Assembly (NCBI GenBank): GCA_963805065.1
Contig: CAWDSS010000010.1
Coordinates: 600,359-664,358, forward strand
Source: Candidatus Omnitrophota bacterium
GTDB lineage: Bacteria; Omnitrophota; Gorgyraeia; Gygaellales; Profunditerraquicolaceae
Direction of reading: 5' to 3'
DNA length: 64,000 nucleotides
Shown here: in pieces, positions 17,230 through 60,302 of the stretch
Numbering within the stretch: the first letter of the stretch is position 1
Layout of the letters: every line of letters begins with the position of its first letter
The notes under the pieces: generated by a model
Databases searched by the model: none
The model's input: only the letters and a program-made list of their open reading frames with translations
What the model was told of the DNA's origin: nothing
Made by a program: the position numbers and the translations under genes

Positions 17230-17469
17230 TTATGTTTCCACAAATATCTTTAATGCATTGCTCTTCATAAACGCAATGCCGTCTTTAATTAAAACCTGGT
17301 TCTGGGTTCTGGGTTCTGAGGAACACCTAATATTACCTTTTTTTAGCCTCATCAGGAATGGCTGATGAAAATCCAATACGCAAACTTCTCCGTCTTCAGT
17401 GGGTAAAGTCACCTGCCTTGCATTTCCTTCCCAGAGTACGCCTTTGGGTTCGAGTATACTTACCTGCAT
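17230..17469 (-). CDS. atpC: ATP synthase epsilon subunit, N-terminal beta-sandwich domain only
   Basis: 79 aa. LEPKGVLWEGNARQVTLPTEDGEVCVLDFHQPFLMRLKKGNIR aligns with the epsilon N-domain pattern (GE.g.L..H.P.l..L..G). It lacks the C-terminal helical hairpin. A heptamer repeat encodes SSEPRTQNQ. Confidence 0.65.
   Translation of the reverse strand: MQVSILEPKGVLWEGNARQVTLPTEDGEVCVLDFHQPFLMRLKKGNIRCSSEPRTQNQVLIKDGIAFMKSNALKIFVET
17296..17320. repeat. Direct heptamer run inside atpC
   Basis: ctggttctgggttctgggttctgag, read in-frame as SEPRTQNQ. Confidence 0.8.
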
Positions 17470-17471
17470 CG

Positions 17472-17556
17472 TCTAGGTTCTAGGCTATGGAATAGACTTC
17501 TGGGTTCTAGGTTATGGGTTCTGGGTTATGTGCAAGAACCTAAAACCTAGAACCTA
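17472..17556. repeat. ~85-nt heptamer-based structured element abutting the atpC start codon
   Basis: Near-identical to 17144-17228, with a few substitutions. Confidence 0.9.
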
Positions 17557-17571
17557 ATTCACTATAATTAT

Positions 17572-38680: not shown

Positions 38681-40099
38681 TTAGGAATTAGGTTCTGGGT
38701 TCTGGGTTTTAGGTTCTATAACTACTTTCGGTTCTACTTCCACGAACGGCCGAACCCTGACCCAGTCAAAATAAACGCTGCCTGCATTAACCAAGGCAGC
38801 ATCTGCTTTTAAACCGATATAGTCTTGCTCCAAACCGCCCACATCTAAAAATTGTATTTCTGCTTCTTTCTTGTAATTTTCACTGTATCTTTCAAATATA
38901 ATGCCGTCTTCATTTACGATTACCTTATATATATAATAAGTAAGAGGTGTTATGGGCTTACCGATATTTAGCTTGGCTACGCCATTAATGGCAATGGTAT
39001 GCTCTGCTCCGGGATAATTTGAAGAATAAACTATTACTTCGATGGGCAAAGTTTTTTGGTTTGTAACTTTTTCGCGCAGCACTGCCTGAATACTGGCATT
39101 GTCTTGCGCCTTGGCTTTAAATTCCAAAATCCCTTGTTTCATTGTAAAATCGCGCGAAAGAATCAGGCAATCCTTAAGCTGCAATTGGCCGTCTTTTAAA
39201 TTATATTCTTTTTTCAGTCCGGGCAGCACCTGCCATTTTGTCTCATCTAATTTCGCTTGGCTAAAATCATCGAAGAGCGGGAAGACTTTATTGGCATCTA
39301 AATATTCAGGGACAGTCCCCTGCGGGGGCAGCCCCTGTTTATCTCCGCAATAAAGATAAATGGTTATGCCTTCTTTGGGAATCTGGGGTATCTTGACCCA
39401 GCAATTATCATATTGGGTTCTAGGTTCTAGGTTCTTGGTGTTCGCATAATCCCCAGAACCTAGAACCGAAAACCTAGAACCTTCTTCTAAATAGTAGTAC
39501 AGAGGCGTCTGGCCATCTGCAGCAGTAAAATAAACATCCCTTCTATCCAAATTTATTTTCACGGGATAATTAAAGAGCTCCTCATTTGAACCCGCAATAA
39601 AAATCGGCTTATGATATTTAAATTTGTAGATGTCGGGGTTGCGGAAGATTTTTTTTACCCCTGATGAATCTGTAAACCCAAGGGTAATTTTTTTCAAGAT
39701 ACTGCCTTGGGGAATATTGACTTTAAAACACAAGGTATTTCCCGCAATAAATCCGTCAGTCAAAGGTTTTCCATTAATTATTTTTGTGTAAGAAGTGCCT
39801 GCGTTAGCGCTGACTTCCAGAGTAACCTCACCTTCAAAATCGTAAGAGGCAGAAATGGTTTTTATTGTGCCTGCAGTTTGAATAGGCGCAGATTCTATTG
39901 TGGTAGGGCCGGCTAAATTGTATTCAAAAACCATAGGGACAGTCCCCTTCGCTTCGCTCGGGGACAGTCCCTGAGCCTGCGCCTGAAGGGTGAGCCCCGC
40001 GCTTAACACTCCCACAATTAACCCAATAGTATATTTATTCATTTTCTCCTCTTCTTGTATGTCCATATAAAATATACTATTTATCATTGTTAATATCAA
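38681..40099 (-). CDS. Secreted DUF2341/LamG-like protein (paralogous to a module of the giant protein)
   Basis: Signal peptide (IGLIVGVLSAGLTLQAQA). DUF2341-like PLYYYLEE...CWVKIPQIPKEGITIYLYCGD, then a concanavalin-like FDDFSQAKLDETKWQVL... domain. Its stop lies 16 nt before the giant gene start. It contains in-frame heptamer palindrome 39413-39482 and has a heptamer-encoded C-terminus. Confidence 0.6.
   Translation of the reverse strand: MILTMINSIFYMDIQEEEKMNKYTIGLIVGVLSAGLTLQAQAQGLSPSEAKGTVPMVFEYNLAGPTTIESAPIQTAGTIKTISASYDFEGEVTLEVSANAGTSYTKIINGKPLTDGFIAGNTLCFKVNIPQGSILKKITLGFTDSSGVKKIFRNPDIYKFKYHKPIFIAGSNEELFNYPVKINLDRRDVYFTAADGQTPLYYYLEEGSRFSVLGSGDYANTKNLEPRTQYDNCWVKIPQIPKEGITIYLYCGDKQGLPPQGTVPEYLDANKVFPLFDDFSQAKLDETKWQVLPGLKKEYNLKDGQLQLKDCLILSRDFTMKQGILEFKAKAQDNASIQAVLREKVTNQKTLPIEVIVYSSNYPGAEHTIAINGVAKLNIGKPITPLTYYIYKVIVNEDGIIFERYSENYKKEAEIQFLDVGGLEQDYIGLKADAALVNAGSVYFDWVRVRPFVEVEPKVVIEPKTQNPEPNS
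38689..38718. repeat. Heptamer run at the 3' coding end of the DUF2341/LamG gene
   Basis: taggttctgggttctgggttttaggttcta, read as EPKTQNPEPNS-stop. Confidence 0.85.
39413..39482. repeat. Heptamer palindrome inside the DUF2341/LamG gene (in-frame)
   Basis: ttgggttctaggttctaggttcttgg-tgttcgcataatcc-ccagaacctagaaccgaaaacctagaacc, read as SRFSVLGSGDYANTKNLEPRTQ. Confidence 0.9.
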
Positions 40100-40154: not shown

Positions 40155-40233
40155 TTGGGTTCTGGGTTCTGGGTTCTGGGCTGTAAATATTGACCGGGTT
40201 TTAGCTAGAACCGAAAACCTAGAACCTAGAACC
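40155..40233. repeat. Heptamer palindrome upstream of the DUF2341/giant-gene operon
   Basis: ttgggttctgggttctgggttctggg-23 nt-ctagaaccgaaaacctagaacctagaacc. Confidence 0.9.
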
Positions 40234-41563: not shown

Positions 41564-41617
41564 TTGGGTTCTAGGTGTTCGACTCTCTATTATTACTTCT
41601 GGGTTCTGGGTTCTTGG
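41564..41617. repeat. Heptamer units (GGTTCT orientation) between the RR start and the four-helix-bundle gene end
   Basis: ttgggttctaggtgttc ... cttctgggttctgggttcttgg. Confidence 0.85.
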
Positions 41618-41805
41618 TAATCATTTACATGTTGCCTGGTTTTTCCTTCTGCAATGTTTGAAGAAATAGAAACAGCGCATCTTCTCATTTGATTAATCAA
41701 GCCGTACATTTCCTCTTTAGGAAAATCTTTGGTAAGTATATAAACTTTTTTAACGAACTCTATGGATTTTTTCCAAACTTCCAAGTCTTTATAGCTTTTT
41801 ATCAC
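41593..41805 (-). CDS. Four-helix-bundle protein (23S rRNA intervening-sequence protein family), truncated
   Basis: SYKDLEVWKKSIEFVKKVYILTKDFPKEEMYGLINQMRRCAVSISSNIAEG matches the N-terminal half of the family. The ORF ends in heptamer-encoded YQEPRTQK, so about half the usual length is missing. GTG start. Confidence 0.55.
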   Translation of the reverse strand: MIKSYKDLEVWKKSIEFVKKVYILTKDFPKEEMYGLINQMRRCAVSISSNIAEGKTRQHVNDYQEPRTQK

Positions 41806-41817
41806 TTCTAATTATCC

Positions 41818-41849
41818 CCCAGAACCTAGAACCTAAAACCTAGAACCTA
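41818..41849. repeat. Heptamer units (AGAACC orientation) between the HK stop and the four-helix-bundle gene start
   Basis: cccagaacctagaacctaaaacctagaaccta; includes the HK stop codon (TAG). Confidence 0.85.
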
Positions 41850-43206: not shown

Positions 43207-43317
43207 TGGGTTCTAGGCTATGGTTTAGACTTCTGGGTTCTAGGTTCTCGGCTATGGCTTAGACTTCTGGGTTCTAGGTTCTCGTGCTAGAACCTAGAAC
43301 CTAAAACCTAGAACCTA
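43207..43317. repeat. Heptamer/27-mer structured array filling the secretin-HK spacer
   Basis: Two ggctatgg(y)ttagacttctgggttctaggttctcg modules plus a terminal palindrome arm. The array spans from the secretin stop codon to the HK start codon. Confidence 0.9.
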
Positions 43318-45867
43318 TATTTTGTTTTTATTCAGCTCCTCTATGTGCCTTAAGGCTTCCTTCGTCCAGAGGTCAGTCGGCTCGCCCAATTGCACGCGCT
43401 TCTTCCAGTATTCAATTGCCTTAGGCTTGTCGCCCTTTGCCTCATTTAACAAAGCCAGGTTAGAATAAGCTGCACGGCACTTTGGATCGAGGTCCAGGGT
43501 TTTTAAATACATCTTCTCTGCTTCATCAGCCAGGCCTGCGGTTTCCAGGATAATACCTAATTGGTTATATGCGCCGGCAAAAGTAGGGTCTGCGCCGGTA
43601 GCTTTTTGAAAATAATCTTTTGCCTCATTGAGGTTACCTGACTTTTGTAACTCCAGGCCCTTTTGATACAACTCTGCAGCTTTGAACCTGTCGGGAATTT
43701 TAACTTCTAAGGCCTTCTTTTCCTCTTTTATCTTTTTTCCGGCTTCTTCCTGTTCTTGCTTTCTCTGTTCTTCTTGTTTCCTTATCTCTTCTTGCTTCTT
43801 GGCTTCTGCTGCTTTTTTCGCCTCTTGGGCTTTTTTAATTTCTTCTTGCTGCCTGTTGGCTTCCTCGGTTTTCTTGGCTTCTTCCTGTTTTTTAAGCTCC
43901 TGGGCTTTTCTTATTTTTTCCTGCCTCTTAGCCTCTGCTTGTTTTCTTTCTTCCTCTGCCTGCTTTTTAATTCCTTCCTGCTGCGCCTTTTTTTGTGCTT
44001 CCTGCTCTTTCTTTTCTTGCTCCTTTTTGGCATTCTCGGCTTTTACGGCTGTTTCTAATTTTATGGCATCGTCTATTTTTTTAAATTCCGCGGCTTGCCT
44101 TTCTTGCTCTAATTTTTCCGATTCAGCCCGAATCAATTCTTCCTGCATTTTTCTTGCGGGAAACTCTAACGTATCGGCCATTTCCCATTCTCTGGCAATT
44201 TTTCTTTTAACGGTTTCAGGCATTATGTCTTTAGGGATTATTTTTTCCGGCTCATATCCGGGCAGCGTTGTATCGCCTTTTATTAAATGAGGCGTAACAA
44301 AAACAATCAGTTCTGTCCTTTGTTTGCTTTTGTCGCGGTTGCCGAAAAACGAACCTATTACCGGCAACCTGGATAGCCAGGGTAACCCCGTAATCGTATC
44401 CGTGTTTTGCTCCTGGATAAGGCCGGCAATCATAATCATTGTGCCGTCTTTAACCTTAACCACGGTCTCTGCCTGCGAGGTCGAGACAATGGGTATACGG
44501 CTGCCTAAAGAAGTTGTGATAGTTTCTTTTACGGAGCTCACCTCTGGTTTTATCTTCATGCTGATGTAACCATCTTTATTGATAGTGGGAATAATTTTTA
44601 ATTTCACGCCCACATCCACGAATTCAATTGACTCGGAGGTTACCGTAGTTGACTGCGCCTGGCTCAATGTCTGGGTCACATATGCCTCGCGCGTGCCCAC
44701 CATAATGCTTGCCTCTTCGTTATTAACCGCGGCAATCCTGGGCTGGGAGATAATTTTGGTGTCACCGTAGCTTTCCAAAAGCTTTATAACTACATTAAAT
44801 CTATTAGCGGGTACGCTGCCCACTGATATTTGCTGATACGTAGCCAAAGCCGTTGCCACCGGGAAATTTCCCAGGAAGTCTAATCCGGCAAGCCTGCTTT
44901 GACTAAACAGCTGTTCCCAATTAATGCCCCTGCTAAAATCATTACTCAGGGTTACTTCGGCAATTTCAGTTTCTAAAAACACTTCCCGCGTTTCTTCGTC
45001 AATCTCTTTTACCAGGCGGCTTATTTTTTCCATCTTCCTGGGCAGGTCAGATACAATGGCCTTGCCGTTACGCTCATCCACAATGACCTGGCCTGTCCCG
45101 GGAGTTATTGCCGCATTCAGTTGCGTTTTTGCATCAGCCGGCTTAATATAATTAAGATTGAAAACTGTGGTTTGTAACGGCTGGTCGAGTTCTAAAGCAG
45201 TTTTTTCCATGATCTCAATTTTTTCCGGTATGTCGATTAAAATTATTGTGCCGGATGCCTCATCAGCAATAATTTTTCCTATATCTGATTTCAGCTGGGA
45301 AAGCGCATTGAATACGTTTGCAGGCTTTGCGTAAGAAAGCTTGATAACCTTCATCCTCCTTTGTTCTATATAATCTTTGCCGTAGCGGACTTTATACTCC
45401 GCAGCGCTCATAATGTAATATATACCGCCTTGTTTCTCGATGGCGTAGCCTTGGGTGAGCACAATTATATCCAATACGTCTTTTAAGGTAACATTATTAA
45501 GGAATACGGTTATGCGGCCGGTTACATCTTTGCTGGGGACAATGGTTCTTCCTGTCTTTAAAGCAAGTATGCGCAGCAATTCTACTACTTCAATATTTTT
45601 TAAATCCAGGGAAATCTTCTCTTCTTTTTGCAGGGAAGGGGCCCCCTCTGCCAAAGCGCTAATACCAAAGCACAAATGACAAAATAAAATCAAAGCACAA
45701 ATGACAAAACTCAAAGAAAAGGGGACGTTTCTATTTTTCTGCTGATTAGGAGACGTTAAAAATAGAAACGTCCCCTTTTCTTTGGTTGTTGAATTACTTA
45801 GATTAAAGGATTTATTTAGACGTTGGGATTTTGTCATTTGGATTTTTAACTTCAATTTTTTCCTCAC
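43315..45867 (-). CDS. Secretin (GspD/PilQ/MshL family) fused to a Lys/Glu-rich coiled region and C-terminal TPR repeats
   Basis: Secretin C-domain (SQPRIAAVNNEEASIMVGT..., ITGLPWLSRLPVIGSFFG, ELIVFVTPHLI). A Lys/Glu-rich low-complexity stretch lies at roughly nt 43725-44145, followed by TPR repeats (AGAYNQLGIILE..., AAYSNLALLNE...). The start is uncertain because the N-terminal ~50 codons are repeat-derived. Confidence 0.8.
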   Translation of the reverse strand: MRKKLKLKIQMTKSQRLNKSFNLSNSTTKEKGTFLFLTSPNQQKNRNVPFSLSFVICALILFCHLCFGISALAEGAPSLQKEEKISLDLKNIEVVELLRILALKTGRTIVPSKDVTGRITVFLNNVTLKDVLDIIVLTQGYAIEKQGGIYYIMSAAEYKVRYGKDYIEQRRMKVIKLSYAKPANVFNALSQLKSDIGKIIADEASGTIILIDIPEKIEIMEKTALELDQPLQTTVFNLNYIKPADAKTQLNAAITPGTGQVIVDERNGKAIVSDLPRKMEKISRLVKEIDEETREVFLETEIAEVTLSNDFSRGINWEQLFSQSRLAGLDFLGNFPVATALATYQQISVGSVPANRFNVVIKLLESYGDTKIISQPRIAAVNNEEASIMVGTREAYVTQTLSQAQSTTVTSESIEFVDVGVKLKIIPTINKDGYISMKIKPEVSSVKETITTSLGSRIPIVSTSQAETVVKVKDGTMIMIAGLIQEQNTDTITGLPWLSRLPVIGSFFGNRDKSKQRTELIVFVTPHLIKGDTTLPGYEPEKIIPKDIMPETVKRKIAREWEMADTLEFPARKMQEELIRAESEKLEQERQAAEFKKIDDAIKLETAVKAENAKKEQEKKEQEAQKKAQQEGIKKQAEEERKQAEAKRQEKIRKAQELKKQEEAKKTEEANRQQEEIKKAQEAKKAAEAKKQEEIRKQEEQRKQEQEEAGKKIKEEKKALEVKIPDRFKAAELYQKGLELQKSGNLNEAKDYFQKATGADPTFAGAYNQLGIILETAGLADEAEKMYLKTLDLDPKCRAAYSNLALLNEAKGDKPKAIEYWKKRVQLGEPTDLWTKEALRHIEELNKNKI
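45660..45840. mobile_element. Composite MITE-like element (outer inverted repeats plus REP doublet core)
   Basis: The left end has ccaaagcacaaatgacaaa duplicated; the core is the REP doublet. The right flank ctttggttgttgaattacttagattaaaggatttatttagacgttgggattttgtcatttg is ~90% identical to 53113-53175. Confidence 0.65.
45717..45779. repeat. REP doublet
   Basis: Same arms; lies inside the tracked 5' extension of the secretin-TPR ORF. Confidence 0.9.
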
Positions 45868-47377
45868 TTTTATCAGACTCTGCTCCGCTAATTAATTGCG
45901 GGGTGAGAAAAATAACCAATTCTTTTCTGGGATTAGATTTCACCCGGCTTCCGAATAGGGCCCCTAAAATCGGAATCCTGGATAACACCGGCTCTCCGGT
46001 GATGGTATCCTGTTTTGTGTCTTGCATCAGCCCGGCAATCATAATCATTGTGCCGTCTTTGACCTTGACCACGGTTTCTGCCTGCGAGGTGTCTACAATG
46101 GGGATTTGGCTGCCGGCAGCTGTGGTGAGAACTGAAGCGACAGTACTTACCTCCGGTTTTATTTTCATGGTGATGTAACCGTCTTTACCGATGGTGGGGA
46201 CTACTTTTAATTTTACTCCCACATCAATAAATTGCACATTTTCTGAATTAACCGTGGTTGTCTGGGCCTGGCTTAAGGTTTCAGTTATATAGGCTTCTCT
46301 TGTCCCCACAAGTATTGTAGCCTCTTCTTTATTAACCGCGACTATGCGCGGAGAAGAAAGAATTTTTGTCTCACCATATTGCGCTAAAAAATTCATAACT
46401 GCAGTAAAGCTATTATGACCGACCGTCCCAATTGAAACCTGCTGATAGGAAGAAAGGGGTATCGTCCAATTTCCTACAAGGTCGAGGCCAGCCATCTTGG
46501 GATTGGTAAAAAGCTTTCCCCAGTTAATCCCACTAGACGTTGCATCAGTCAGGGTTACTTGTATAATTTCTCCGTTGATCAATACCTGGCGGCTTGCCTC
46601 ATCGAACTCTTTCATCAGCCTTGTGATTTTGGCTAATCTCTGCGGCAGGTCAGAGACAATTGCCTTACTGCTCCTATCGTCGATAATTACCTGGCCCACT
46701 CCCGGAGTAATCAATTCATTTAAATAGGATTTGATGTCGGCTGAGCGGGCGTAATTTATGTCAAACACAGCAGTCTGCAAAGGCTGGTCGAGCTCCTTTA
46801 TGGTCTGCTCAATCAGCGATAAAACAGGCGGGGAATCTGTTATGATAAGCGTCCCCGAAGGCTCATCAGAGATTATTTTTCCCGTTTGTGATTTTAGTGT
46901 CGAGATAATATTAGTTATGTTGGAGGGTTTGGCATAATTAAGCTTTATGGTTTTGGTTTCTTTTCTTTCGCCAAACTTGACGCCAAACGTTGCTTCATAC
47001 TCTTCCGGAGTCATTACCTTAATGAGATTACCTCTTTTCTCGTAGGCTAAATTCTGTTTCGTAATAATAACATCCAAGGCATCTTCAAAAGATAAATTAT
47101 TCACAAAAACACTGGCTACCCTGCCCTGGACACCGGGCGTCGTTATGATGGTCAATCCGCTTTTGGCAGAAAGCACTTTGAATAATTCGTTTATGTCTAC
47201 CCCTTGCAAATCCAGGGAAATTTTTTCTCCTTTTGCAAGTGGCACTTCTGGCGCGACAGTAGCTGGCATGGTGGCTGCCGGCTGGATTACAGTTGCAGTG
47301 GTAGAGGGAGTCTCTGCAGCATAACCAAAAACCGAAAACCAACAACCAATAACCAATAACAATATTTTTATCTTCAT
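45812..47377 (-). CDS. Secretin (GspD/PilQ/MshL family)
   Basis: Signal peptide MKIKILLLVIGCWFSVFGYA; N-domains; secretin domain SSPRIVAVNKEEATILVGT..., ITGEPVLSRIPILGALFG, ELVIFLTPQLI. Long stretches are near-identical to the downstream paralogue. Confidence 0.88.
   Translation of the reverse strand: MKIKILLLVIGCWFSVFGYAAETPSTTATVIQPAATMPATVAPEVPLAKGEKISLDLQGVDINELFKVLSAKSGLTIITTPGVQGRVASVFVNNLSFEDALDVIITKQNLAYEKRGNLIKVMTPEEYEATFGVKFGERKETKTIKLNYAKPSNITNIISTLKSQTGKIISDEPSGTLIITDSPPVLSLIEQTIKELDQPLQTAVFDINYARSADIKSYLNELITPGVGQVIIDDRSSKAIVSDLPQRLAKITRLMKEFDEASRQVLINGEIIQVTLTDATSSGINWGKLFTNPKMAGLDLVGNWTIPLSSYQQVSIGTVGHNSFTAVMNFLAQYGETKILSSPRIVAVNKEEATILVGTREAYITETLSQAQTTTVNSENVQFIDVGVKLKVVPTIGKDGYITMKIKPEVSTVASVLTTAAGSQIPIVDTSQAETVVKVKDGTMIMIAGLMQDTKQDTITGEPVLSRIPILGALFGSRVKSNPRKELVIFLTPQLISGAESDKSEEKIEVKNPNDKIPTSK
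47321..47360. repeat. AT-rich heptamer run (NNAACCN)x6 encoding a signal-peptide core
   Basis: ataacca aaaaccg aaaacca acaacca ataacca ataacaa, read on the minus strand as LLLVIGCWFSVFGY. Confidence 0.7.
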
Positions 47378-53185: not shown

Positions 53186-53872
53186 TTATAATTCCTCTAC
53201 TGCTTTTAGCGGATCCTTTGCTTCTAATATGGGCCTGCCTACGACGAGAAAATCGCTGCCTGCTTTAATTGCCGACTTTGAGGTTGTAATTCTTTGCTGA
53301 TCATCGCTTGCGGATTTCACCGGCCTTATCCCAGGAGTTATTGCAATAAATTTTTTGCGGATGTTTCGCTTTAAGCCGGAAACTTCTTGAGCCGAACAGA
53401 CAACCCCGTCTAAACCGCAAGCCAAACCTGTTTTTGCCAATTTCAGGACCTCACCTGGCCTGGTTTCTTTGCTGGTTAATACCGTAACCCCGATTAACAG
53501 CGGCCTTCTTGCCTTAAGCCGCCTTGCTTCCTGTTTTGCTGCCCTTACTGCCTGCCTTAGCATTTCTTCTCCTCCTGAAATATGCAAGGTGAGCATCTTG
53601 ACTTTAAGGCGGGTTGCCTGACGCACGGCATTAGCAACGGTATTGGGGATATCATAAAATTTTAAATCCAAAAACACTTCTGCGTGCTTCTTATGTAAAA
53701 AATCAATTATTTTATGTCCGCAGGCGGCAAAAATCTGTGAACCCACTTTAAATATTCTTATCTTCGGGTAAAGCTTATTGATGAAATATTTTGCTTTTTT
53801 AAAATTATCCACATCTAAGGCTAGGATTATCCTGTTCTTGAGTTCTTGAGTTCTTGAGTTCTTGACTTTCAT
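53186..53872 (-). CDS. pyrF: Orotidine 5'-phosphate decarboxylase
   Basis: IILALDV, FKVG, FLDLKFYDIPNTV, GVTVLTS, VVGRPI motifs. N-terminal codons 4-13 are encoded by heptamer array 53834-53866. Confidence 0.9.
   Translation of the reverse strand: MKVKNSRTQELKNRIILALDVDNFKKAKYFINKLYPKIRIFKVGSQIFAACGHKIIDFLHKKHAEVFLDLKFYDIPNTVANAVRQATRLKVKMLTLHISGGEEMLRQAVRAAKQEARRLKARRPLLIGVTVLTSKETRPGEVLKLAKTGLACGLDGVVCSAQEVSGLKRNIRKKFIAITPGIRPVKSASDDQQRITTSKSAIKAGSDFLVVGRPILEAKDPLKAVEEL
53834..53866. repeat. Heptamer run (GAGTTCT)x4 at the 5' end of pyrF
   Basis: gttcttgagttcttgagttcttgagttcttgac, read as KNSRTQELKNR. Confidence 0.85.
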
Positions 53873-53892
53873 ATTATTATCTACTTAGTGTC

Positions 53893-53954
53893 TTTGCGAG
53901 CAAAGCGAAGCAATCTCATTTGGGATTGCTTCGGCACTTCGTGCCTCGCAATGA
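53893..53954. repeat. Imperfect 62-nt palindrome in the pyrD-pyrF spacer
   Basis: tttgcgagcaaagcgaagcaatc-tcatttgg-gattgcttcggcacttcgtgcctcgcaa. Single copy in this window and unrelated to the other families. Confidence 0.7.
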
Positions 53955-53962
53955 CGGCTGCC

Positions 53963-54877
53963 TTATATAGCAAGAGAGCCTATAGTGTCCTTAATACTAC
54001 TGATTTTATTTTGTAATAAATATTCCTTTAGCCCGTAGATTATATCGATGCTTACTTTGGGATTAATAAAATTAGCAGTGCCTATTGCTACGGCAGTTGC
54101 TCCGGCAATAAAAAATTCTAAGGCACTTGAAACATCCATGATGCCGCCCATGCCGATGATAGGGATTTTTATCTTCTGATAAACCTGCCAGACCATTCTT
54201 ACTGCCACCGGCCTGATTGCCGGGCCGCTTAACCCTGCGGTTACGCAGGCAATTCGCGGCTCTCTTTTGGTTACGTCTATGCTCATGCCTGTTAATGTAT
54301 TAATCAAAGAAACTGCGTCGCTACCGGCGGATTCCGATGCTTTGGCAATCTCGGTTATATCCGTAACATTGGGCGAAAGCTTGGTAATCAACACCTTGTG
54401 CGTAACTTTGCGTACTGCTGTTATTAAATCATGGGTTGCTTTTGCATCCTGTGATATCAATTGCGGGCTTTTTATGTTCGGGCAGGATATGTTTAATTCC
54501 ACAGCGGCAATTTCTGTTATTTTGTCTAAAATTCTAGCCAGGGTTACAAATTCTTTTGGGTCGCCTTCAGAGGCGATGCTTACGATTATCGGGCAGCCAA
54601 GCTTTACCAAATGCGGCAATTTATGTTTTAAAAATGAATCTGCTCCGGGATTTTCCAAGCCGATAGAATTAAGCATGCCTGCGGGAGTTTCGCAGGTGCG
54701 CGGCGAGGGATTACCGATTCTGGGCTTAATAGTAATGGTTTTTGTTACAATAGCCCCCAATTTCTTCACATCAAAAAAATCCTTAAATTCCTCGGCATAG
54801 CCGAATGTTCCGGAGGCAACCATTACGGGATTACTTAATTTAAGCTTACCTATATTTACTGATGTATCGATAGACAT
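53963..54877 (-). CDS. pyrD: Dihydroorotate dehydrogenase catalytic subunit (class 1B)
   Basis: NPVMVASGTFGY, NSIGLENPG, ELNISCPN, GLSGPAIRPVA, IIGMGGI motifs. Confidence 0.92.
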   Translation of the reverse strand: MSIDTSVNIGKLKLSNPVMVASGTFGYAEEFKDFFDVKKLGAIVTKTITIKPRIGNPSPRTCETPAGMLNSIGLENPGADSFLKHKLPHLVKLGCPIIVSIASEGDPKEFVTLARILDKITEIAAVELNISCPNIKSPQLISQDAKATHDLITAVRKVTHKVLITKLSPNVTDITEIAKASESAGSDAVSLINTLTGMSIDVTKREPRIACVTAGLSGPAIRPVAVRMVWQVYQKIKIPIIGMGGIMDVSSALEFFIAGATAVAIGTANFINPKVSIDIIYGLKEYLLQNKISSIKDTIGSLAI

Positions 54878-54882
54878 TTGTT

Positions 54883-56031
54883 TTAAAAGCTGGGTTCAAT
54901 ACAAAGTATTTTGTATTTTTTAAAATCCTTCAACCCCCCCTGGATAAAACTTAAATTCGTTAAATACTTCATTTTGCACCAGAACCAGAATTTATTCGTC
55001 GGCTCCATGCTGAAATTCCATTTTACATACTGGTAGGCAAAATAGAGCGTCAGCAGAAATGCTACGATAGTAAAAAGCTTTAACCCGATTCCTGATGCAA
55101 ACAAACTAAATATCAAACCAATTATGGAAACCAAGCCAAACAGATGCATGAGATGAAAATTGCCAATGTAGACAAAGCCTCGCAGGGGAAACGGCAGAAT
55201 AAATGAAGGGTTCCCTTTTAAAAATTGCAGGTTAACCTGCAGTCCCTTCTTAATTACATACTTGTCAATCAAAGGTAAATGTGCCTGGCCATAAGTCACC
55301 CAGACTTTACGCAGCGCCTTTAAATCTGCCCTGTGCATATGGTCAACTTTTGCCTTGGGAGCAAAATAAAATTTCCAGCCACGGCTGCGGTGCTGATAGC
55401 TTAAATCCATATCCTCACCAGTCGGCCTTTCCCAAAACTTGGCACCCAATGATTGCATTGCAGACCTGCGGTACGTCACATTACAAGTGCCGAAGAAATA
55501 TGCCTTGTGCCCCCCGATATCAACGGGTTTGGGGTTTTTGGGAAAATCCGGGTAATAGCCTTCTTTAATAAATCCGTAGCGGGGGCTAACCATATTAAAA
55601 CGGAAATGCTGACACCATGCCTCTACCAGATTATCGGGATCGACCTTTAAAGTATAGACCTCTCCTCCTACTGCAGCGATTAATTCATCCCGCTGAAAGT
55701 GCCGCAGCATTTCTTTTATCCAGTTTTTATCCGGAGCGCAGTCTGCGTCCGTAAAAAACAGGAACTCTCCTTTAACAACCTCGAGCGCTTTATTGCGGGC
55801 AAACCCCGGAGAAGGGCAATTCGGCACTTCTACTAATTTTATAAACGGGTATTTTACCTGCCAGCTCTTTATTATTTCAATCGTCTTATCGCTGGAGCCG
55901 CCGTCGGCAATTACCCATTCCCAAGAGTCGTGCGGGTAATCGACATTAAGCAAATAATCAAAGGTCTTCTCTATAGTGCGTTCGAAATTTTTTACCGGAA
56001 TAATTATGGAAACCAAAGGCATTGCGGGCAT
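54883..56031 (-). CDS. Family 2 glycosyltransferase with C-terminal membrane domain
   Basis: VSIIIPVKN, ADGGSSDKT, FTDADC (DXD) and GEDMDLS motifs, with C-terminal TM helices. It sits between pyrK and pyrD. Confidence 0.8.
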   Translation of the reverse strand: MPAMPLVSIIIPVKNFERTIEKTFDYLLNVDYPHDSWEWVIADGGSSDKTIEIIKSWQVKYPFIKLVEVPNCPSPGFARNKALEVVKGEFLFFTDADCAPDKNWIKEMLRHFQRDELIAAVGGEVYTLKVDPDNLVEAWCQHFRFNMVSPRYGFIKEGYYPDFPKNPKPVDIGGHKAYFFGTCNVTYRRSAMQSLGAKFWERPTGEDMDLSYQHRSRGWKFYFAPKAKVDHMHRADLKALRKVWVTYGQAHLPLIDKYVIKKGLQVNLQFLKGNPSFILPFPLRGFVYIGNFHLMHLFGLVSIIGLIFSLFASGIGLKLFTIVAFLLTLYFAYQYVKWNFSMEPTNKFWFWCKMKYLTNLSFIQGGLKDFKKYKILCIEPSF

Positions 56032-56043
56032 TTTACCCTCCTT

Positions 56044-56790
56044 CTACCAGATTATTTCATCCGCTAAAAATACAGGCCCCTCTTTACAGACCCGCTTAAA
56101 ACCATTCTTTGTATCTACGACACAGCCTAAACATGCGCCTATCCCGCAAGCCATGTGTTCTTCCAAAGAAATTTGCGCGGGGATTTTCAGGTTTTTAGAG
56201 ATTATGGCTATTTCTTTTAACATGGGTTTGGGACCGCAGGCGTAGATGGTCGATGGTCGCAAAACCTTCTTTAATAAATCCGTTACCCTGCCTTTGAAAC
56301 CCCTGGAACCGTCATCAGTAGCAATTTTGATTTCGCAGCCTAAATTTTTAAATTCCCTCTCGCATAATATTTGGTTTTTTGTTTTTGCGCCTATTAAAAC
56401 CAAGGGCTTATGTTTAGCCAGCTTTTTTGCTAAGAATACCAAGGGCGCAACGCCCATGCCTCCTGCTACGAGAACCGATAACCGAGAACCGAGAACCGAG
56501 AACCCATTGCCCAACGGCCCGATTATATCCGCATATTCTCCTTGTTTTCTTTGCGAAAATAACTCCGAGCCTTTGCCTACAACTTCATAAATAATCTCTA
56601 TGGATTTGCCTTTTGCTGCATGTATGCTAAACGGCCGCCTAAGAAGCGGGTCAAACCCTTCACCTACTTTTATATTCACAAATTGGCCAGCAGTTGCTGA
56701 CTTTGCAATATTAGCGGCTTGCAGGCAGCAATGAAAATAATTATTGCTGATTTTTGCGTTGTAAATTATTTTAGCTTTTGTTTGAAACAT
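56044..56790 (-). CDS. pyrK: Dihydroorotate dehydrogenase electron-transfer subunit
   Basis: RRPFSI (FAD binding), GPLGNGF, AGGMGVAPL, and the C-terminal 2Fe-2S motif MACGIGACLGCVV. The loop after GNGF is encoded by heptamer array 56470-56505. Confidence 0.88.
   Translation of the reverse strand: MFQTKAKIIYNAKISNNYFHCCLQAANIAKSATAGQFVNIKVGEGFDPLLRRPFSIHAAKGKSIEIIYEVVGKGSELFSQRKQGEYADIIGPLGNGFSVLGSRLSVLVAGGMGVAPLVFLAKKLAKHKPLVLIGAKTKNQILCEREFKNLGCEIKIATDDGSRGFKGRVTDLLKKVLRPSTIYACGPKPMLKEIAIISKNLKIPAQISLEEHMACGIGACLGCVVDTKNGFKRVCKEGPVFLADEIIW
56470..56505. repeat. Heptamer run (GAGAACC)x5 inside pyrK
   Basis: gagaaccgataaccgagaaccgagaaccgagaaccc, read as FSVLGSRLSVL between GPLGNG and VAGGMG. 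Confidence 0.85.
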
Positions 56791-58682: not shown

Positions 58683-58758
58683 GTTTTAGGTTTTGCGTTG
58701 CAGTTTTGCCTTTTTCCTTTTTACTTTTACCTTTTTGCTTTTTACTTTTTCCTTTTTA
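58683..58758. repeat. Second heptamer family, long run
   Basis: gttttaggttttgcgttgcagttttgcctttttcctttttacttttacctttttgctttttacttttt, which encodes the carB tail [23 protein letters not shown]. Confidence 0.85.
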
Positions 58759-60302
58759 TAGTAGCTTTGCAACGAATTCACTTCCAGCTTCTCTTGTATC
58801 AACGCCTCTATGCCGTTAACCGTTGCCTGTGCCCCGGAAATTGTAGTGGTGTAAGGAATGTTACAGGCGATAACCTGCGAACGAATCTTTACTTCATCTT
58901 GCCTGGGAATTCTTCCCGTGGGAGTATTGATTACCAATTGAATTTTCCCGTCTTTCATAAGATCCAGGACATTGGGTCTGCCTTCGGCGATTTTTGGCAG
59001 CACCTTTACCTCTATATTGTTTCTTTCTAATGCCGCGGCAGTGCCTGAAGAGGCATAGAGATGAAATCCCAGGTCTTTTAATTTTTTGGCAATGAACACG
59101 ACCGCCCTTTTATCTTTGTCTCTTACTGAAATAAACACATTGCCTTTTTTAGGAAGGTTTTGGCCGGCGGCAATCTGGCTTTTAATGTAAGCCTGGCCAA
59201 AATCCTTGCCAATACCCATTACCTCGCCTGTTGATTTCATCTCCGGCCCTAAAATTATATCTACTCCGGCAAAGCGGTTAAAAGGAAACACGGATTCTTT
59301 AACTGACACATGTTTTGGGATGATTTCCTGTGTAATACCCAGGTCTTTAAGCTTCTTACCCAACATGACCTTGGTTGCCAGTTTTGCCAACGGCACTCCT
59401 ATTGCCTTGGAAACAAAAGGAACTGTCCTGGATGCGCGCGGATTAACCTCTAATACATAAACTTTTTCATCTTTTACTGCATATTGGACATTCATTAGCC
59501 CTGTAACGCTCAATTCCTTTGCCATTTTATACGTAGCTTCACGGATTTTATTGAGTATTCCGGCGGACAGTGTATAAGTAGGCAACGCCATCGCTGAATC
59601 TCCCGAATGAATACCCGCCTCCTCTATATGCTCCATAATCCCGCCGATAACAAATGTGTCTCCGTCGCCGATTAAATCCACGTCTACTTCAATAGCATCC
59701 TCTAAAAATTTATCGATTAATACGGGATGTTCTCCTGAAACTTCAGCTGCTTCTTTGATAAAGCGCTCCAGGGTAGACTCTTCATAAACTATCTCCATTG
59801 CCCTGCCCCCTAAAACATAAGAAGGCCTTACTAAAACCGGGTAACCGATTTTTTGCGCTACTTCTTTTGCTTCCGGAAAAGTAAAGGCTGTGCCGTTTGC
59901 AGGCTGCAAGAGATTTAACTTTTCTAGCATCTGCTTGAAACGCTTTCTGTCTTCGGCAATATCAATGCTGTCTGCGCTTGTCCCCAAAAGGTTTACTCCC
60001 GCCTTACGCAAAGGCACTGCCAGATTAAGCGGCGTCTGACCTCCAAATTGTACAATTACTCCCACAGGCTTTTCAAGTTTAATGATACTCATAATATCTT
60101 CGAAGGTAAGCGGCTCAAAATAAAGCCTGTCTGAAGTATCATAATCAGTAGAAACTGTCTCCGGGTTACAATTAACCATAATACTGTCTATGCCTTCTTC
60201 TTTGAGGGCATATGCTGCATGGCAGCAGCAATAATCAAACTCAATACCCTGCCCGATTCTATTCGGGCCGCCACCTAAGATAATTACACATTTTTTAGCC
60301 AT
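58686..60302 (-). CDS. carB: Carbamoyl-phosphate synthase large subunit, C-terminal half (second ATP-grasp plus MGS-like domain)
   Basis: Collinear with E. coli CarB from about residue 555: [85 protein letters not shown]. It starts cleanly at MAKK, with no N-terminal half adjacent. Its Lys-rich tail is encoded by heptamer array 58683-58758. Confidence 0.9.

What the first reader, a model, noticed from the sequence alone, without database searches (positions are those of the whole stretch)
53834..56505. Heptamer runs embedded in-frame in housekeeping enzymes (pyrF N-terminus, pyrK loop; also atpC)
Three cases are visible:
- pyrF codons 4-13 (KNSRTQELKNR) come from (GAGTTCT)x4 at 53834-53866.
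- The pyrK segment FSVLGSRLSVL, between the conserved GPLGNG and VAGGMGVAPL motifs, comes from (GAGAACC)x5 at 56470-56505.
- atpC SSEPRTQNQ comes from 17296-17320.

The same peptide words (EPRTQ, VLGSR) therefore recur in unrelated proteins. Because 7 is not divisible by 3, any single-unit slippage would inactivate essential genes. The arrays must therefore be stable or under strong purifying selection for length, or population heterogeneity is tolerated. This resembles cyanobacterial STRR heptamers, but here the arrays lie inside ORFs.
Basis: partly seen in the sequence, partly recalled or inferred. Interest (0 to 1): 0.55.

Follow-up and report, generated by a model that had tools for sequence, protein, structure and literature searches.

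The report
In-frame heptamer repeat arrays in genes
In this Omnitrophota bacterium and its relatives, short runs of a 7-base repeat sit inside essential genes without breaking them, because they occupy tolerant loops or protein ends and change length only three units at a time; the main repeat family appears to derive from a small gene cassette bracketed by inverted 7-base repeats.

Summary
pyrK carries (GGTTCTC)x5 and atpC carries (CAGAACC)x3 in frame. The pyrF array is an octamer, (TCAAGAAC)x4, not a heptamer. Perfect arrays of 3 or more units occur only at period 7 (four) and period 8 (one), against 0.01 expected.

Most copies of the GGTTYTN family are arms of 65-90-nt hairpins at gene boundaries. 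Whole hairpins also lie in frame in a DUF2341 protein and in two pseudopilin leaders.

Relatives show this is lineage-wide:
- 58 of 120 PyrK orthologues contain a run that only a perfect heptamer array can encode, at three hot spots, with loop lengths stepped by 7 aa.
- 29 of 120 PyrF orthologues have array-derived N-terminal extensions.
- Two strains 95% identical differ by exactly three units (24 nt).
- AtpC orthologues carry 5-, 17- and 22-aa array or hairpin insertions in one beta-turn.

Most likely these are slippage-prone repeats, plus a miniature palindromic element, filtered by selection for reading frame, absence of stops and structural tolerance. They are not phase switches.

Side finding: PF05635 'S23p' four-helix-bundle genes are bracketed by inverted heptamer arrays (55 of 80 loci downstream, 36 of 80 on both sides). 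The window holds a partly deleted copy whose arms match the hairpins.

The parts
56471..56504 (-). pyrK in-frame heptamer array (GGTTCTC)x5, with unit 4 = GGTTATC. It encodes FSVLGSRLSVL, which is the linker between the FAD and NAD domains plus the start of the first NAD-domain strand.
   Evidence: Alignment to PyrK structure 1EP3_B. The same phase, length and variant unit 4 occur in L002 and L003.
56245..56259 (-). Short second array in pyrK, (CGACCAT)x2.1, encoding RPSTI. It lies at hot spot 3, which in other lineages holds 4-unit arrays such as (CTATCGA) = LSTIDYRLSTI.
56044..56790 (-). pyrK, the electron-transfer subunit of dihydroorotate dehydrogenase B, 248 aa. It falls in the shortest length class at all three variable loops.
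53834..53865 (-). pyrF N-terminal OCTAMER array (TCAAGAAC)x4, encoding KNSRTQELKN (codons 4-13). It adds 33 nt (11 aa) relative to the sister lineage, whose protein begins MKN-IILALDV.
53186..53872 (-). pyrF, orotidine-5'-phosphate decarboxylase, 228 aa. There is no alternative canonical start codon between the array and the conserved IILALDV.
17298..17318 (-). atpC in-frame array (CAGAACC)x3, encoding EPRTQNQ. It adds 5 aa in a beta-turn that reads LPDRRT in the 74-aa orthologues.
17230..17469 (-). atpC, ATP synthase epsilon subunit consisting of the N-terminal beta-sandwich only, 79 aa.
39416..39482 (-). Complete two-arm hairpin element in frame inside a DUF2341-family gene, encoding GSRFSVLGSGDYANTKNLEPRTQ. 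It is an insertion of 13-23 aa relative to homologues, and TAG is avoided in the reading frame.
38691..38717 (-). Single-arm array that forms the C-terminal tail (EPKTQNPEPNS) of the same DUF2341-family gene (38681..40099).
5986..6051 (-). Hairpin element in frame upstream of the prepilin cleavage motif RS|FTLLEL of pseudopilin gene 5441..6115. The nearest start codon is a TTG in the hairpin loop, giving the leader MPRTENPEPRTQRS.
6464..6528 (-). Hairpin element in frame upstream of RS|FTLIEL of pseudopilin gene 6054..6554, and 4 nt downstream of the stop of the gene at 6532..6960.
16676..16795 (.). Intergenic hairpin element within the atp gene cluster, with the left-flank motif GGCTATGGAATAGACT.
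   Evidence: The closest relative, L127, has 11-35-nt spacers without hairpins.
17150..17228 (.). Intergenic hairpin element starting 2 nt after the atpC stop codon and lying upstream of atpE.
17480..17557 (.). Intergenic hairpin element between the GGDEF-domain gene and atpC.
40156..40233 (.). Intergenic hairpin element with a 27-nt loop.
43209..43317 (.). Composite element with a hairpin whose last unit overlaps the stop codon of gene 43315..45867.
41593..41849 (-). Partly deleted S23p cassette. It consists of a 5' arm (GGTTCTA GGTTTTA GGTTCTA GGTTCTG, 41821-41847), a 70-aa PF05635 remnant (41593..41805) and a 3' arm (CAGAACC)x3 (41597-41618) that supplies the ...DYQEPRTQK* C-terminus.
47323..47360 (-). 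(TTGGTTN)x5 array encoding the hydrophobic core LLVIGCWFSVFGY of the predicted signal peptide of ORF 45812..47377.
58704..58757 (-). (GGAAAAA)-type array, x7.7, with a 21-nt super-period, encoding the lysine-rich C-terminal tail of the CarB-like gene 58686..60302.

Best explanation
The genome, an Omnitrophota metagenome-assembled genome, and its relatives have pervasive turnover of short tandem arrays with a 7-nt unit, occasionally 8 nt. Two sources overlap.

(i) A dispersed 65-90-nt palindromic element whose two arms are (GGTTYTN)3-5 arrays. It appears to be a miniature, ORF-less derivative of a cassette in which a PF05635 'S23p' four-helix-bundle gene is bracketed by inverted heptamer arrays. 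It occupies the spacer right after stop codons and has also landed inside genes.

(ii) In-situ arrays that multiply a heptamer already present in a coding sequence.

Inside genes, selection acts as a filter. Only alleles survive whose net length is a multiple of three, that have no in-frame stop (the unit ending in A gives TAG), and that lie in a structurally tolerant place. The observed places are an N-terminal extension (PyrF), an inter-domain linker (PyrK), a beta-turn (AtpC), cleaved leader or signal peptides, variable loops and C-terminal tails. The arrays are translated as near-neutral filler. They change length in jumps of three units (21 or 24 nt, that is 7 or 8 aa), and this repeated contraction and expansion keeps the units alike within a lineage while they diverge between lineages.

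Shown: the positions, the reading frames, insertion status against orthologues, the three-unit quantisation, recurrence at hot spots, and the link between S23p genes and flanking arrays.

Inferred: slippage as the mechanism, neutrality of the encoded peptides, and derivation of the hairpins from S23p cassettes.
For: Non-random arrays with a period-7 bias.

Hairpin family:
- The arrays occur as inverted pairs starting 2-35 nt after stop codons and fold at -21 to -43 kcal/mol.
- Copies share the same order of variant units and the same flank motifs, so they are copies of one element rather than independent slippage products.
- The closest atp locus in a relative lacks them.

In-frame whole hairpins:
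- The DUF2341 gene is a single gene (homologue P0340 spans residues 5-458), and the element is a 13-23-aa insertion.
- Two pseudopilin leaders contain a whole hairpin.
- AtpC orthologues P0127 and P0129 carry 17- and 22-aa hairpins in the turn where the window has +5 aa, while the nearest relative P0121 has neither an array nor a seed sequence.

In-situ arrays:
- 58 of 120 PyrK orthologues have a run of 8 or more residues that only a perfect heptamer array can encode (0 in shuffles). The runs fall at three hot spots and use many different units.
- Four cases were confirmed at the DNA level.
- Loop lengths are quantised by 7 aa.
- PyrF N-termini are bimodal, 3-6 aa versus 13-14 aa. Nine of 23 long forms have a heptamer-coded run of 6 or more residues, against 0 of 138 shuffles. 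Long forms are scattered across the tree next to short sister sequences.
- L130 and L131 are 95% identical over 1,455 nt and differ at the N-terminus by one 24-nt indel, which is 3 octamer units.

Stability of the window's pyrK array:
- L002 and L003 share its length, phase and variant unit 4 at 69% protein identity.
- An independent assembly, L001, is 100% identical over 3,931 nt.

S23p link:
- The window holds a remnant bracketed by family arms.
- Six of 120 loci picked only for having an array have a PF05635 gene within 180 nt of it.
- Of 80 loci picked only for having an S23p gene, 55 have a heptamer array within 300 nt downstream, 43 upstream and 36 on both sides. Twenty-two of 32 arm pairs are complementary at 6-7 of 7 positions.
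- Array density is 3.8 per kb within 150 nt of the gene, against 0.2-0.3 per kb farther away.
- The junction ...EPRT* is shared by the window, L066 and L134-137.

Literature: heptanucleotide repeats are the commonest long simple-sequence repeats in most genomes, which has been attributed to polymerase slippage (Mrazek et al. 2007, as summarised in PMC4679880 and PMC4692102).
Against: - No read-level data were available, so slippage rates and minority out-of-frame alleles are unknown.
- There is no expression or proteomic evidence that the arrays are translated. The 79-aa AtpC is not in the protein collection as an exact sequence.
- A jump from one to four units cannot come from simple slippage on a single copy. 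Stepwise growth would pass through frameshifted alleles of essential genes, so the birth of arrays is unexplained.
- About half of all PyrK orthologues have perfectly periodic arrays at roughly 65-70% protein identity. Homogenisation must therefore be fast, or the arrays are selected, which strains the 'neutral filler' reading.
- The pyrK unit (TCGGTTC, spanning the native S-V-L codons) coincides with the core of the hairpin family. This is either coincidence or gene conversion, and I could not tell which.
- The hairpins fold 5-10 kcal/mol better as the strand antisense to the genes, and they lack U-tracts. Their own function and functional strand are unknown.
- Only 7 of 120 array-selected loci have an S23p gene, so most arrays are not next to one.
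Confidence: 0.6

Rival explanations
1. Contingency loci. The arrays are programmed phase-variation switches: slippage by one or two units turns pyrF (and perhaps other genes) off and on in a host-dependent bacterium that can salvage pyrimidines. Consensus assemblies would show only the ON phase.
For: - The unit length is not a multiple of 3, and the array lies directly after the start codon of pyrF, which is the classic layout of contingency loci.
- Long and short N-termini have been gained or lost repeatedly across the PyrF tree.
- Length differs between strains that are 95% identical.
- Heptanucleotide simple-sequence repeats are known to drive phase variation at the hmw genes of Haemophilus influenzae (PMC8262952 and PMC12721329; only their titles and abstracts were seen).
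Against: - Every allele seen is in frame: 120 PyrF, 120 PyrK and 99 AtpC orthologues. The one candidate truncated protein, P0301, proved to be an in-frame 13-aa form whose start codon had been called too far downstream.
- The only strain-level indel seen is three units and preserves the frame.
- The arrays have only 3-5 units.
- The pyrK array has kept its length and phase through about 30% protein divergence.
- The genes concerned are housekeeping genes, not surface or restriction-modification genes.
- Protein databases are, however, biased against frameshifted alleles.
Confidence: 0.1
2. The arrays are cis-acting RNA or single-stranded-DNA sites, including those inside genes. They would be recognised with 7-nt periodicity by an oligomeric protein, the obvious candidate being the S23p four-helix-bundle protein, reported as a homopentamer for Xanthomonas campestris in PMC4990558. 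On this reading the arrays are retained for regulation or processing, not as filler.
For: - Heptamer arrays are concentrated 15-fold next to S23p genes, with a median of about 4.5-5 units per arm.
- Upstream units are enriched for AGG (18 of 38) and downstream units for CCT (27 of 51), where about 10% would be expected. This suggests a conserved trinucleotide plus a 4-nt spacer.
- The hairpins sit at fixed positions just after stop codons, even inside the atp gene cluster.
- Many PyrK orthologues have perfect arrays, which suggests maintenance.
- The Coxiella intervening sequence has heptamer repeats at its RNase III cleavage site (PMC4990558).
Against: - The in-gene arrays use many unrelated units, occur in both orientations, and are mostly single arms.
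- The pyrK and atpC arrays lack the AGG register on the sense strand.
- No binding data exist.
- The window's only S23p copy is a remnant.
- The hairpins fold better on the antisense strand.
Confidence: 0.13
3. Selection at the protein level. The encoded peptides (EPRTQ-type hydrophilic loops, VLGS-type hydrophobic stretches) are useful modules, for example linkers, signal-peptide cores or interaction motifs, and have been recruited repeatedly.
For: - Read on the GGTTNTN strand, the arrays encode hydrophobic peptides and are found in a signal peptide. Read on the opposite strand, they encode hydrophilic, proline-rich peptides and are found in loops and turns.
- The same sites are hit again and again.
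Against: - At a given hot spot the peptides differ completely between lineages (SILDTRY, YQLPITN, YPLSAIR and others).
- Many orthologues lack the arrays altogether.
- Some arrays lie in leader peptides that are cleaved off.
- The same DNA is abundant in non-coding spacers.
Confidence: 0.07
4. Artefact or chance: mis-assembly, or periodicity produced by base composition.
For: The contig of an independent short-read assembly ends in the repeat-rich pyrD-pyrF spacer.
Against: - An independent assembly is 100% identical across the pyrK array.
- 0.01 perfect arrays are expected by chance, against 5 seen.
- Orthologues from many samples carry arrays at the same sites.
Confidence: 0.01

Closest known systems
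Cyanobacterial STRR heptamers and the general excess of heptanucleotide long simple-sequence repeats (Mazel 1990 from my own knowledge; Mrazek et al. 2007 as summarised in PMC4679880 and PMC4692102)
   Same: Tandem 7-nt units. Strong over-representation of period 7 over other periods. Mostly intergenic. Lineage-specific unit sequences.
   Different: The unit sequences are unrelated (GGTTYTN versus CCCCAGT and others). The host phylum is different. Here the arrays are usually paired as hairpins, and many lie in frame in core genes with length changing in three-unit steps, which I did not find reported for STRR.
Xanthomonas GGGAATC and Nostoc GGGGAYT heptamer arrays (PMC4692102)
   Same: Heptamer arrays with a preference for about four units. 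Located within 50 bp of start or stop codons between genes of the same orientation. Some occur as inverted pairs.
   Different: Those arrays are G-rich and form G-quadruplexes, and they are reported as under-represented in coding regions. The present family cannot form G-quadruplexes and is found in frame in genes.
TAACTGA direct repeats of Beggiatoaceae, Cyanobacteria and Bacteroidetes (PMC4679880)
   Same: One heptamer family spread across distant phyla. Intergenic, next to start codons. Stop codons within the unit limit its overlap with genes.
   Different: Those are direct repeats with essentially no inverted pairs (1 of 170 sets). No systematic in-frame occurrence in housekeeping enzymes is described.
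Rickettsia palindromic elements (Ogata et al. 2000, as reviewed in PMC10969869)
   Same: A dispersed palindromic element inserted in frame in unrelated metabolic genes and translated as extra peptide at positions compatible with the fold. This is the best analogue for the whole hairpins in the DUF2341 gene, the pseudopilin leaders and the AtpC orthologues.
   Different: Rickettsia palindromic elements are about 150 bp, are not built of tandem heptamers, and show no length quantisation or in-situ regrowth. There is no sequence relationship.
23S rRNA intervening sequences that carry an S23p ORF, for example in Coxiella burnetii (PMC4990558)
   Same: A PF05635 ORF in the loop of a stem about 28 bp long formed by terminal inverted repeats. 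Tandem heptamers (GACAGAT x2-3, varying between strains) lie at the 5' end, where RNase III cuts.
   Different: The cassettes found here are not in rRNA (0 of 20 tested). Both arms consist wholly of heptamer arrays of about 5 units. ORF-less derivatives are dispersed between and inside protein-coding genes.
Phase-variable heptanucleotide repeats upstream of hmw1A/hmw2A in Haemophilus influenzae (PMC8262952, PMC12721329)
   Same: A 7-nt simple-sequence repeat near the 5' end of a gene whose copy number varies between strains.
   Different: There the copy number changes one unit at a time and tunes expression of an adhesin from the 5' UTR. Here the arrays are inside housekeeping genes and only frame-preserving changes are seen.
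REP and REPIN elements (PMC3116915, PMC3733652)
   Same: Short extragenic palindromes in many copies at gene boundaries, including inside operons.
   Different: REP elements are 20-40-bp palindromes with GTAG or CGTC heads, mobilised by RAYT transposases. They are not tandem-repeat arms. No RAYT transposase gene was looked for or seen here.

Membership tests
Heptanucleotide long simple-sequence repeats (STRR-like) | Head-to-tail copies of a 7-nt unit | tested here: met
   Met for pyrK and atpC. Not met for pyrF, whose period is 8.
Heptanucleotide long simple-sequence repeats (STRR-like) | Period 7 over-represented relative to other periods and to chance | tested here: met
   32 period-7 rows, and 4 perfect arrays against 0.01 expected.
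Heptanucleotide long simple-sequence repeats (STRR-like) | Unit sequence of STRR1-3 (CCCCAGT, TTGGTCA, CAACAGT; from my own knowledge) and a cyanobacterial host | tested here: not met
   The unit is GGTTYTN. The best protein hits are Candidatus Omnitrophota.
In-frame palindromic elements of the Rickettsia type | A dispersed palindromic repeat family with several near-identical copies | tested here: met
   eight hairpins that share unit order and flank motifs.
In-frame palindromic elements of the Rickettsia type | Inserted in frame in otherwise intact genes, at a position absent from orthologues | tested here: met
   DUF2341 gene. AtpC orthologues P0127 and P0129. Pseudopilin leaders.
In-frame palindromic elements of the Rickettsia type | Homology to Rickettsia palindromic element families, and a length of about 100-150 bp | not tested
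   No sequence comparison was run. The length here is 65-90 nt and the arms are tandem arrays.
Contingency (phase-variable) simple-sequence-repeat loci | A repeat whose unit is not a multiple of 3, located in the 5' coding region or promoter | tested here: met
   pyrF codons 4-13. PyrF orthologues.
Contingency (phase-variable) simple-sequence-repeat loci | Copy-number polymorphism between close strains that shifts the reading frame on and off | tested here: not met
   The only strain-level polymorphism found is 3 units (24 nt) and in frame. All orthologues are in frame. Read-level data were not available.
S23p / intervening-sequence-like cassette | A PF05635 (TIGR02436) four-helix-bundle ORF | tested here: met
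   41593..41805: PF05635 at 3.1e-23, matching profile positions 1-59 of 106, so it is truncated.
S23p / intervening-sequence-like cassette | Terminal inverted repeats that bracket the ORF and can form a stem | tested here: met
   Arrays at 41821-41849 and 41597-41618. The pattern is general: 36 of 80 loci have arrays on both sides, and 22 of 32 pairs are complementary.
S23p / intervening-sequence-like cassette | Located within helix 45 of the 23S rRNA and excised by RNase III | tested here: not met
   The window copy lies between protein-coding genes. None of 20 S23p loci has an rRNA match. RNase III cleavage cannot be tested with these tools.
REP / REPIN | A 20-40-bp palindrome with a GTAG or CGTC head, and a RAYT transposase in the genome | not tested
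   No search for a RAYT transposase was possible beyond the 64-kb window. The arms are tandem heptamers, not REP-like.

The most novel reading that the evidence does not exclude
Heptamer tandem arrays are the cis-element of a widespread, uncharacterised genetic system built around PF05635 'S23p' four-helix-bundle proteins, which are relatives of the Avd accessory protein of diversity-generating retroelements. In this reading the gene is bracketed by inverted arrays of about five (AGGNNNN)/(NNNNCCT) units that the oligomeric protein recognises or even generates. ORF-less miniature copies then spread through genomes, including into coding sequence. The long-noted but unexplained excess of heptanucleotide repeats in many bacteria (STRR, GGGAATC, TAACTGA, GGTTCTN) would be the footprint of this system. 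In Omnitrophota the system would additionally act as a fast generator of 7-aa loop, tail and leader-peptide variants in core proteins.
Probability: 0.15. Interest if true: 0.9.

Novelty: new variant of a known kind. Interest (0 to 1): 0.68.

Why it matters
Repeats whose unit is not a multiple of three are expected to be purged from essential genes. Here they are common. About half of the orthologues of a core pyrimidine-synthesis enzyme in one phylum carry perfectly periodic heptamer arrays at three loops, and the loop lengths step by 7 aa.

This provides:
- a natural system for studying how repeat slippage, selection for reading frame and protein tolerance interact;
- a fast route to new loops, tails, leader peptides and signal peptides;
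- a warning for gene callers and assemblers working on genomes of uncultivated bacteria.

The side finding is that S23p four-helix-bundle genes are bracketed by inverted heptamer arrays across phyla. It links a protein family of unknown function to the old, unexplained excess of 7-nt repeats in bacteria, and it makes that question testable by binding assays, transcript-end mapping and comparative counts.

Tried and rejected
1. I first assumed the hairpins were intrinsic terminators stabilised by G-U pairs on the gene strand. Folding showed the opposite strand is 5-10 kcal/mol more stable, and there is no U-tract. Three hairpins also lie inside the atp gene cluster. I dropped the terminator reading.

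2. I considered that pyrK had received an insertion of the hairpin family. The alignment shows no net gain in length, and the same site carries arrays with many other units in other lineages. I re-read it as an in-situ array.

3. I asked whether ORF 38681..40099 was two genes merged across an intergenic hairpin. Homologues span the junction in a single stretch, so it is one gene.

4. I looked for an out-of-frame (OFF) pyrF allele in P0301, whose annotated protein starts at ILALDV. The upstream DNA holds an in-frame (GCAAGCC)x4 array and an ATG, so the start codon had simply been called too far downstream.

5. Literature searches for Omnitrophota plus heptamer or tandem repeats, and for PF05635/S23p plus heptamers, returned nothing beyond the Coxiella intervening-sequence paper.

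6. A seven-sequence S23p alignment was too divergent for the locus search. I replaced it with three gammaproteobacterial sequences, so the 80 loci are biased towards that S23p subfamily.

7. My first S23p profile was contaminated by an antisense ORF. I rebuilt it and checked the hits against Pfam.

8. I could not judge whether GGTTCTN is unusually widespread compared with other heptamers.

Full report
1. WHAT IS AT THE COORDINATES

Almost all genes in the window (43.8% G+C) lie on the - strand. The relevant genes are pyrF (53186..53872), pyrD (53963..54877), a glycosyltransferase (54883..56031), pyrK (56044..56790) and a 79-aa atpC consisting of the epsilon N-domain only (17230..17469). All were identified by curated family models.

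Tandem Repeats Finder reports three arrays:
- 56469-56504: period 7, 5.1 copies.
- 17298-17318: period 7, 3.0 copies.
- 53834-53865: period 8, 4.0 copies, 100% matches.

The pyrK and atpC claims therefore hold as written. The pyrF array exists and is in frame at codons 4-13, but its unit is the octamer TCAAGAAC, not a heptamer.

The arrays are not chance. Perfect arrays of at least 3 units occur four times at period 7 and once at period 8, and never at any other period from 4 to 12. Third-order Markov simulations gave a mean of 0.01.

2. THE SURROUNDINGS

The window holds 19 arrays of (GGTTYTN) with 3 or more units.

Ten are arms of intergenic inverted pairs, that is hairpins of 65-90 nt folding at -21 to -43 kcal/mol. 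They begin 2-35 nt after the stop codon of a - strand gene. Three of them lie in the spacers around atpC and atpE.

The copies share the same order of variant units (GGTTCTA GGTTTTA GGTTCTA GGTTCTN) and the same flank motifs (GGCTATGGAATAGACT, GCGTAAATGACC). They are therefore copies of one element and not independent slippage products.

The nearest atp locus in a relative (L127, AtpC 84% identical) has spacers of 11-35 nt and no hairpin.

The hairpins are not canonical terminators. They have no U-tract, and they fold 5-10 kcal/mol better as the strand antisense to the genes. That asymmetry is unexplained.

About 95% of the window is coding. The roughly 3-5 kb of spacer therefore carries about 20 times the array density of the genes.

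- A complete two-arm hairpin lies inside a DUF2341-family gene at 39416-39482. Homologues span the site in one stretch, and the element is an insertion of 13-23 aa. A further arm forms the C-terminal tail of the same gene.
- Two pseudopilin genes have the whole hairpin in frame upstream of the prepilin motif RS|FTLIEL. The nearest start codon is a TTG in the hairpin loop, so at least one arm encodes the cleaved leader peptide.
- A (TTGGTTN)x5 array encodes the hydrophobic core of a signal peptide. A (GGAAAAA)-type array encodes the lysine-rich tail of a CarB-like protein.
- pyrK has a second, short (CGACCAT)x2.1 array.

In the genes the last base of the unit is C, G or T where an A would create an in-frame TAG. 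Arrays made entirely of GGTTCTA units have a stop in every frame on both strands, so they cannot be coding.

4. ORTHOLOGUES

The best protein hits are Candidatus Omnitrophota. The closest PyrK is 71% identical.

AtpC:
- Most orthologues are 74 aa, with a tight turn reading LPDRRT.
- The window has +5 aa from (CAGAACC)x3.
- P0127 has +17 aa and P0129 +22 aa. These are complete palindromic heptamer hairpins in frame in the same turn.
- The nearest relative has neither an array nor a seed sequence.
- The atpC array is therefore an insertion of the hairpin family.

PyrK:
- The window's array adds no length relative to P0002 or P0004. It spans the linker between the FAD and NAD domains and the start of the first NAD-domain strand.
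- L002 and L003 (69% protein identity) have the same length and phase and the same variant fourth unit (GTTATCG), with extra substitutions. The array is therefore ancestral to these lineages and most perfect in the window.
- An independent assembly is 100% identical over 3,931 nt, including the array.

PyrF:
- The sister lineage begins MKN-IILALDV. The window has +33 nt.
- L126 has ATG(AGACCCA)x4 at the same place.

5. A LINEAGE-WIDE PATTERN

A 7-residue peptide can be encoded by a perfect heptamer array only if it belongs to a set of 11,256 of the possible 7-mers. This allows arrays to be detected from protein sequence alone.

Runs of 8 or more residues that fit this test occur as follows:
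- PyrK: 58 of 120 orthologues (0.0 in shuffles).
- PyrF: 7 of 120.
- AtpC: 1 of 99.
- A diverse DUF2341 set: 10 of 150.

In PyrK the runs cluster at three hot spots: residues about 98-112 (the window's site), 125-143 and 176-210. They use many different units. Four cases were confirmed in DNA.

Loop lengths step by 7 aa:
- Loop 2: 15 aa (62 proteins), 22 (26) and 36 (2).
- Loop 3: 18, 25 (50 proteins), 32 and 39.
- The window's PyrK is in the shortest class at all three loops.

At hot spot 1 the unit is the heptamer that spans the native S-[I/V]-L codons. SILDTRYSIL comes from TCGATAC, and the window's SVLGSRLSVL comes from TCGGTTC. This is an in-situ array whose unit happens to share the core of the hairpin family, whether by coincidence or by gene conversion.

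PyrF N-termini are bimodal: 3-6 aa in 80 proteins and 13-14 aa in 29. Nine of 23 of the 13-aa forms still back-translate to heptamer arrays over 6-11 residues, against 0 of 138 shuffles. The window's 14-aa form back-translates to an octamer array over 10 residues, and the other four 14-aa forms fit an octamer better than a heptamer. Long forms are scattered over the tree next to short sisters, for example MNPRTK beside MNPRTQELVNSRTK and MIRNTK beside MKRNTQYSIRNTK.

L130 and L131 are 95% identical over 1,455 nt, with identical upstream DNA. At the N-terminus they differ by one 24-nt indel, which equals three octamer units.

Together these results show arrays that turn over in frame-preserving three-unit steps. 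Units stay alike within a lineage and diverge between lineages.

6. MECHANISM

Best explanation, confidence 0.6: slippage-prone arrays of 7-nt units, plus a miniature palindromic element, filtered by selection for reading frame, absence of stops and structural tolerance, and translated as near-neutral filler.

Shown: positions, reading frames, insertion status, quantisation and hot spots.

Inferred: slippage itself, neutrality, and cycles of three-unit contraction and expansion as the cause of homogenisation.

Weak points:
- The birth of an array, from one unit to four, inside an essential gene is unexplained.
- So many perfect arrays imply either fast homogenisation or selection.

The rival explanations are phase variation (0.10), cis-acting sites for a protein that reads a 7-nt period (0.13), selected peptide modules (0.07) and artefact (0.01).

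7. ORIGIN OF THE HAIRPIN FAMILY

ORF 41593..41805 is a 70-aa remnant of a PF05635/TIGR02436 'S23p' four-helix-bundle protein. It is bracketed by a 5' arm with the same unit order as arms of several ORF-less hairpins and by a 3' arm, (CAGAACC)x3, that supplies its C-terminus...DYQEPRTQK*.

Seven of these carry a PF05635 gene, six of them within 180 nt of the array, and five of those have the array downstream reading NAGAACC on the gene's strand.

The reverse test used 80 metagenome loci chosen only by S23p protein similarity:
- Period 7 dominates the tandem repeats: 165 rows, against 3 at period 6 and 40 at period 8.
- 55 of 80 loci have a heptamer array within 300 nt downstream, 43 upstream and 36 on both sides.
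- In 22 of 32 pairs the two arms are complementary at 6-7 of 7 positions.
- Upstream units are enriched in AGG (18 of 38) and downstream units in CCT (27 of 51).
- Array density is 3.8 per kb within 150 nt of the gene and 0.2-0.3 per kb farther away.
- None of 20 loci tested lies in an rRNA gene.

In L066 and L134-137 the S23p protein ends ...EPRT*, with the stop codon supplied by a (TAGAACC)n array, as in the window.

The window copy therefore looks like an internal-deletion intermediate between a full cassette and the ORF-less hairpins.

The Coxiella 23S intervening sequence is the nearest described relative. It has an S23p ORF, a 28-bp terminal stem, and two or three strain-variable GACAGAT heptamers at the RNase III site (PMC4990558). 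I found no paper that describes the general association.

8. COMPARISON WITH KNOWN SYSTEMS AND NOVELTY

- As repeats, these behave like heptanucleotide long simple-sequence repeats (STRR, GGGAATC, TAACTGA; PMC4692102, PMC4679880). They are not members of those sequence families.
- As in-frame palindromes, they behave like Rickettsia palindromic elements (PMC10969869). They are shorter, built of tandem units, and show length quantisation.
- They do not meet the defining test for contingency loci, because only frame-preserving alleles were seen.

I rate this a new variant of a known kind. The unusual features are the frequency of non-triplet arrays in core enzymes, the three-unit quantisation at conserved hot spots, and the S23p link.

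9. LIMITS

- Only 64 kb of the genome was available, and there were no reads and no expression data.
- Protein databases under-represent frameshifted alleles.
- The 80 S23p loci are biased towards one subfamily.
- No control heptamer was scanned in the genome collection.

Noticed in passing
window 41593-41849; loci L006, L064, L066, L094, L099, L101; loci L133-L212: PF05635/TIGR02436 'S23p' four-helix-bundle genes are bracketed by inverted tandem heptamer arrays of about 5 units per arm. The unit differs between elements, with AGG enriched upstream and CCT downstream. Of 80 loci chosen only by protein similarity, 55 have an array downstream and 36 have arrays on both sides. Array density is about 15-fold higher within 150 nt of the gene than farther away. 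None of the 20 loci tested lies in rRNA.
   Followed up: yes
The hosts include Verrucomicrobiota, Acidobacteriota, Chloroflexota, Bacteroidota, Planctomycetota, Gammaproteobacteria (Shewanella, Pseudoalteromonas, Vibrio, Photobacterium), candidate-phyla-radiation bacteria and others. Arrays whose unit ends in T, C or G often lie within the first 20 codons of long ORFs. No control heptamer was scanned, so it is unknown whether this unit is special.
   Followed up: partly
window 53880-53962; also L129 700-789: A different GC-rich palindromic element (GTCTTTGCGAGCAAAGCGAAGCAATC ... GATTGCTTCGGCACTTCGTGCCTCGCAATGAC) fills the pyrD-pyrF spacer. In relatives these two genes overlap. An independent assembly, L001, ends inside this element. 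A similar element follows atpC in L129.
   Followed up: no
window 5980-6534, 16725-17562, 40150-40240: The hairpins fold 5-10 kcal/mol better as + strand RNA, which is antisense to the flanking genes, because the differences between the two arms give G-U pairs on that strand and A-C mismatches on the gene strand. This is unexplained.
   Followed up: partly
window 20176-38664, with a 174-nt tandem repeat at 34646-37557: A giant ORF of 6,162 aa contains about 17 copies of a 174-nt (58-aa) tandem repeat.
   Followed up: no
window 15889-15956 and 19275-19336; also 16898-16912 and 19394-19408: A second repeat set occurs in inverted orientation about 3.4 kb apart. It consists of GTCCCCTTTTCTTTGG x2 with (CATTACA)x3 on one side and (AATGACA)x3.7 with GAAGAAAAGGGGACGTTTC x2 on the other, plus (TTGTCAT)x2 at two further sites. 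Together they flank the segment that holds the atpC/atpE, GGDEF-domain and neighbouring genes.
   Followed up: no
L003 about 8040-8070 (CarB-like tail); P0286 PyrF N-terminus: In relatives, another palindrome family (CCTGCC..GGCAGG, encoding PACRAGRQ / CPACPAGRRQAG) lies in frame in a C-terminal tail and in a PyrF N-terminal extension.
   Followed up: no
window 17230-17469: AtpC here, and in about 100 Omnitrophota orthologues, consists only of the epsilon N-terminal beta-sandwich (74-79 aa) and lacks the C-terminal helical domain. The window's exact 79-aa sequence is not in the protein collection, so it may not have been called as a gene.
   Followed up: no
window 7092-7120, 7663-7697, 12062-12095: Further heptamer arrays with other units (TTTTACG/TTTTACT, AGTTTTG) overlap or directly follow the stop codons of three more - strand genes.
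   Followed up: no
L132 230-330: The pyrD gene of this relative has an in-frame stop (…TIT*KPRLG…) and was called as two ORFs. This is either a pseudogene or a sequencing error.
   Followed up: no
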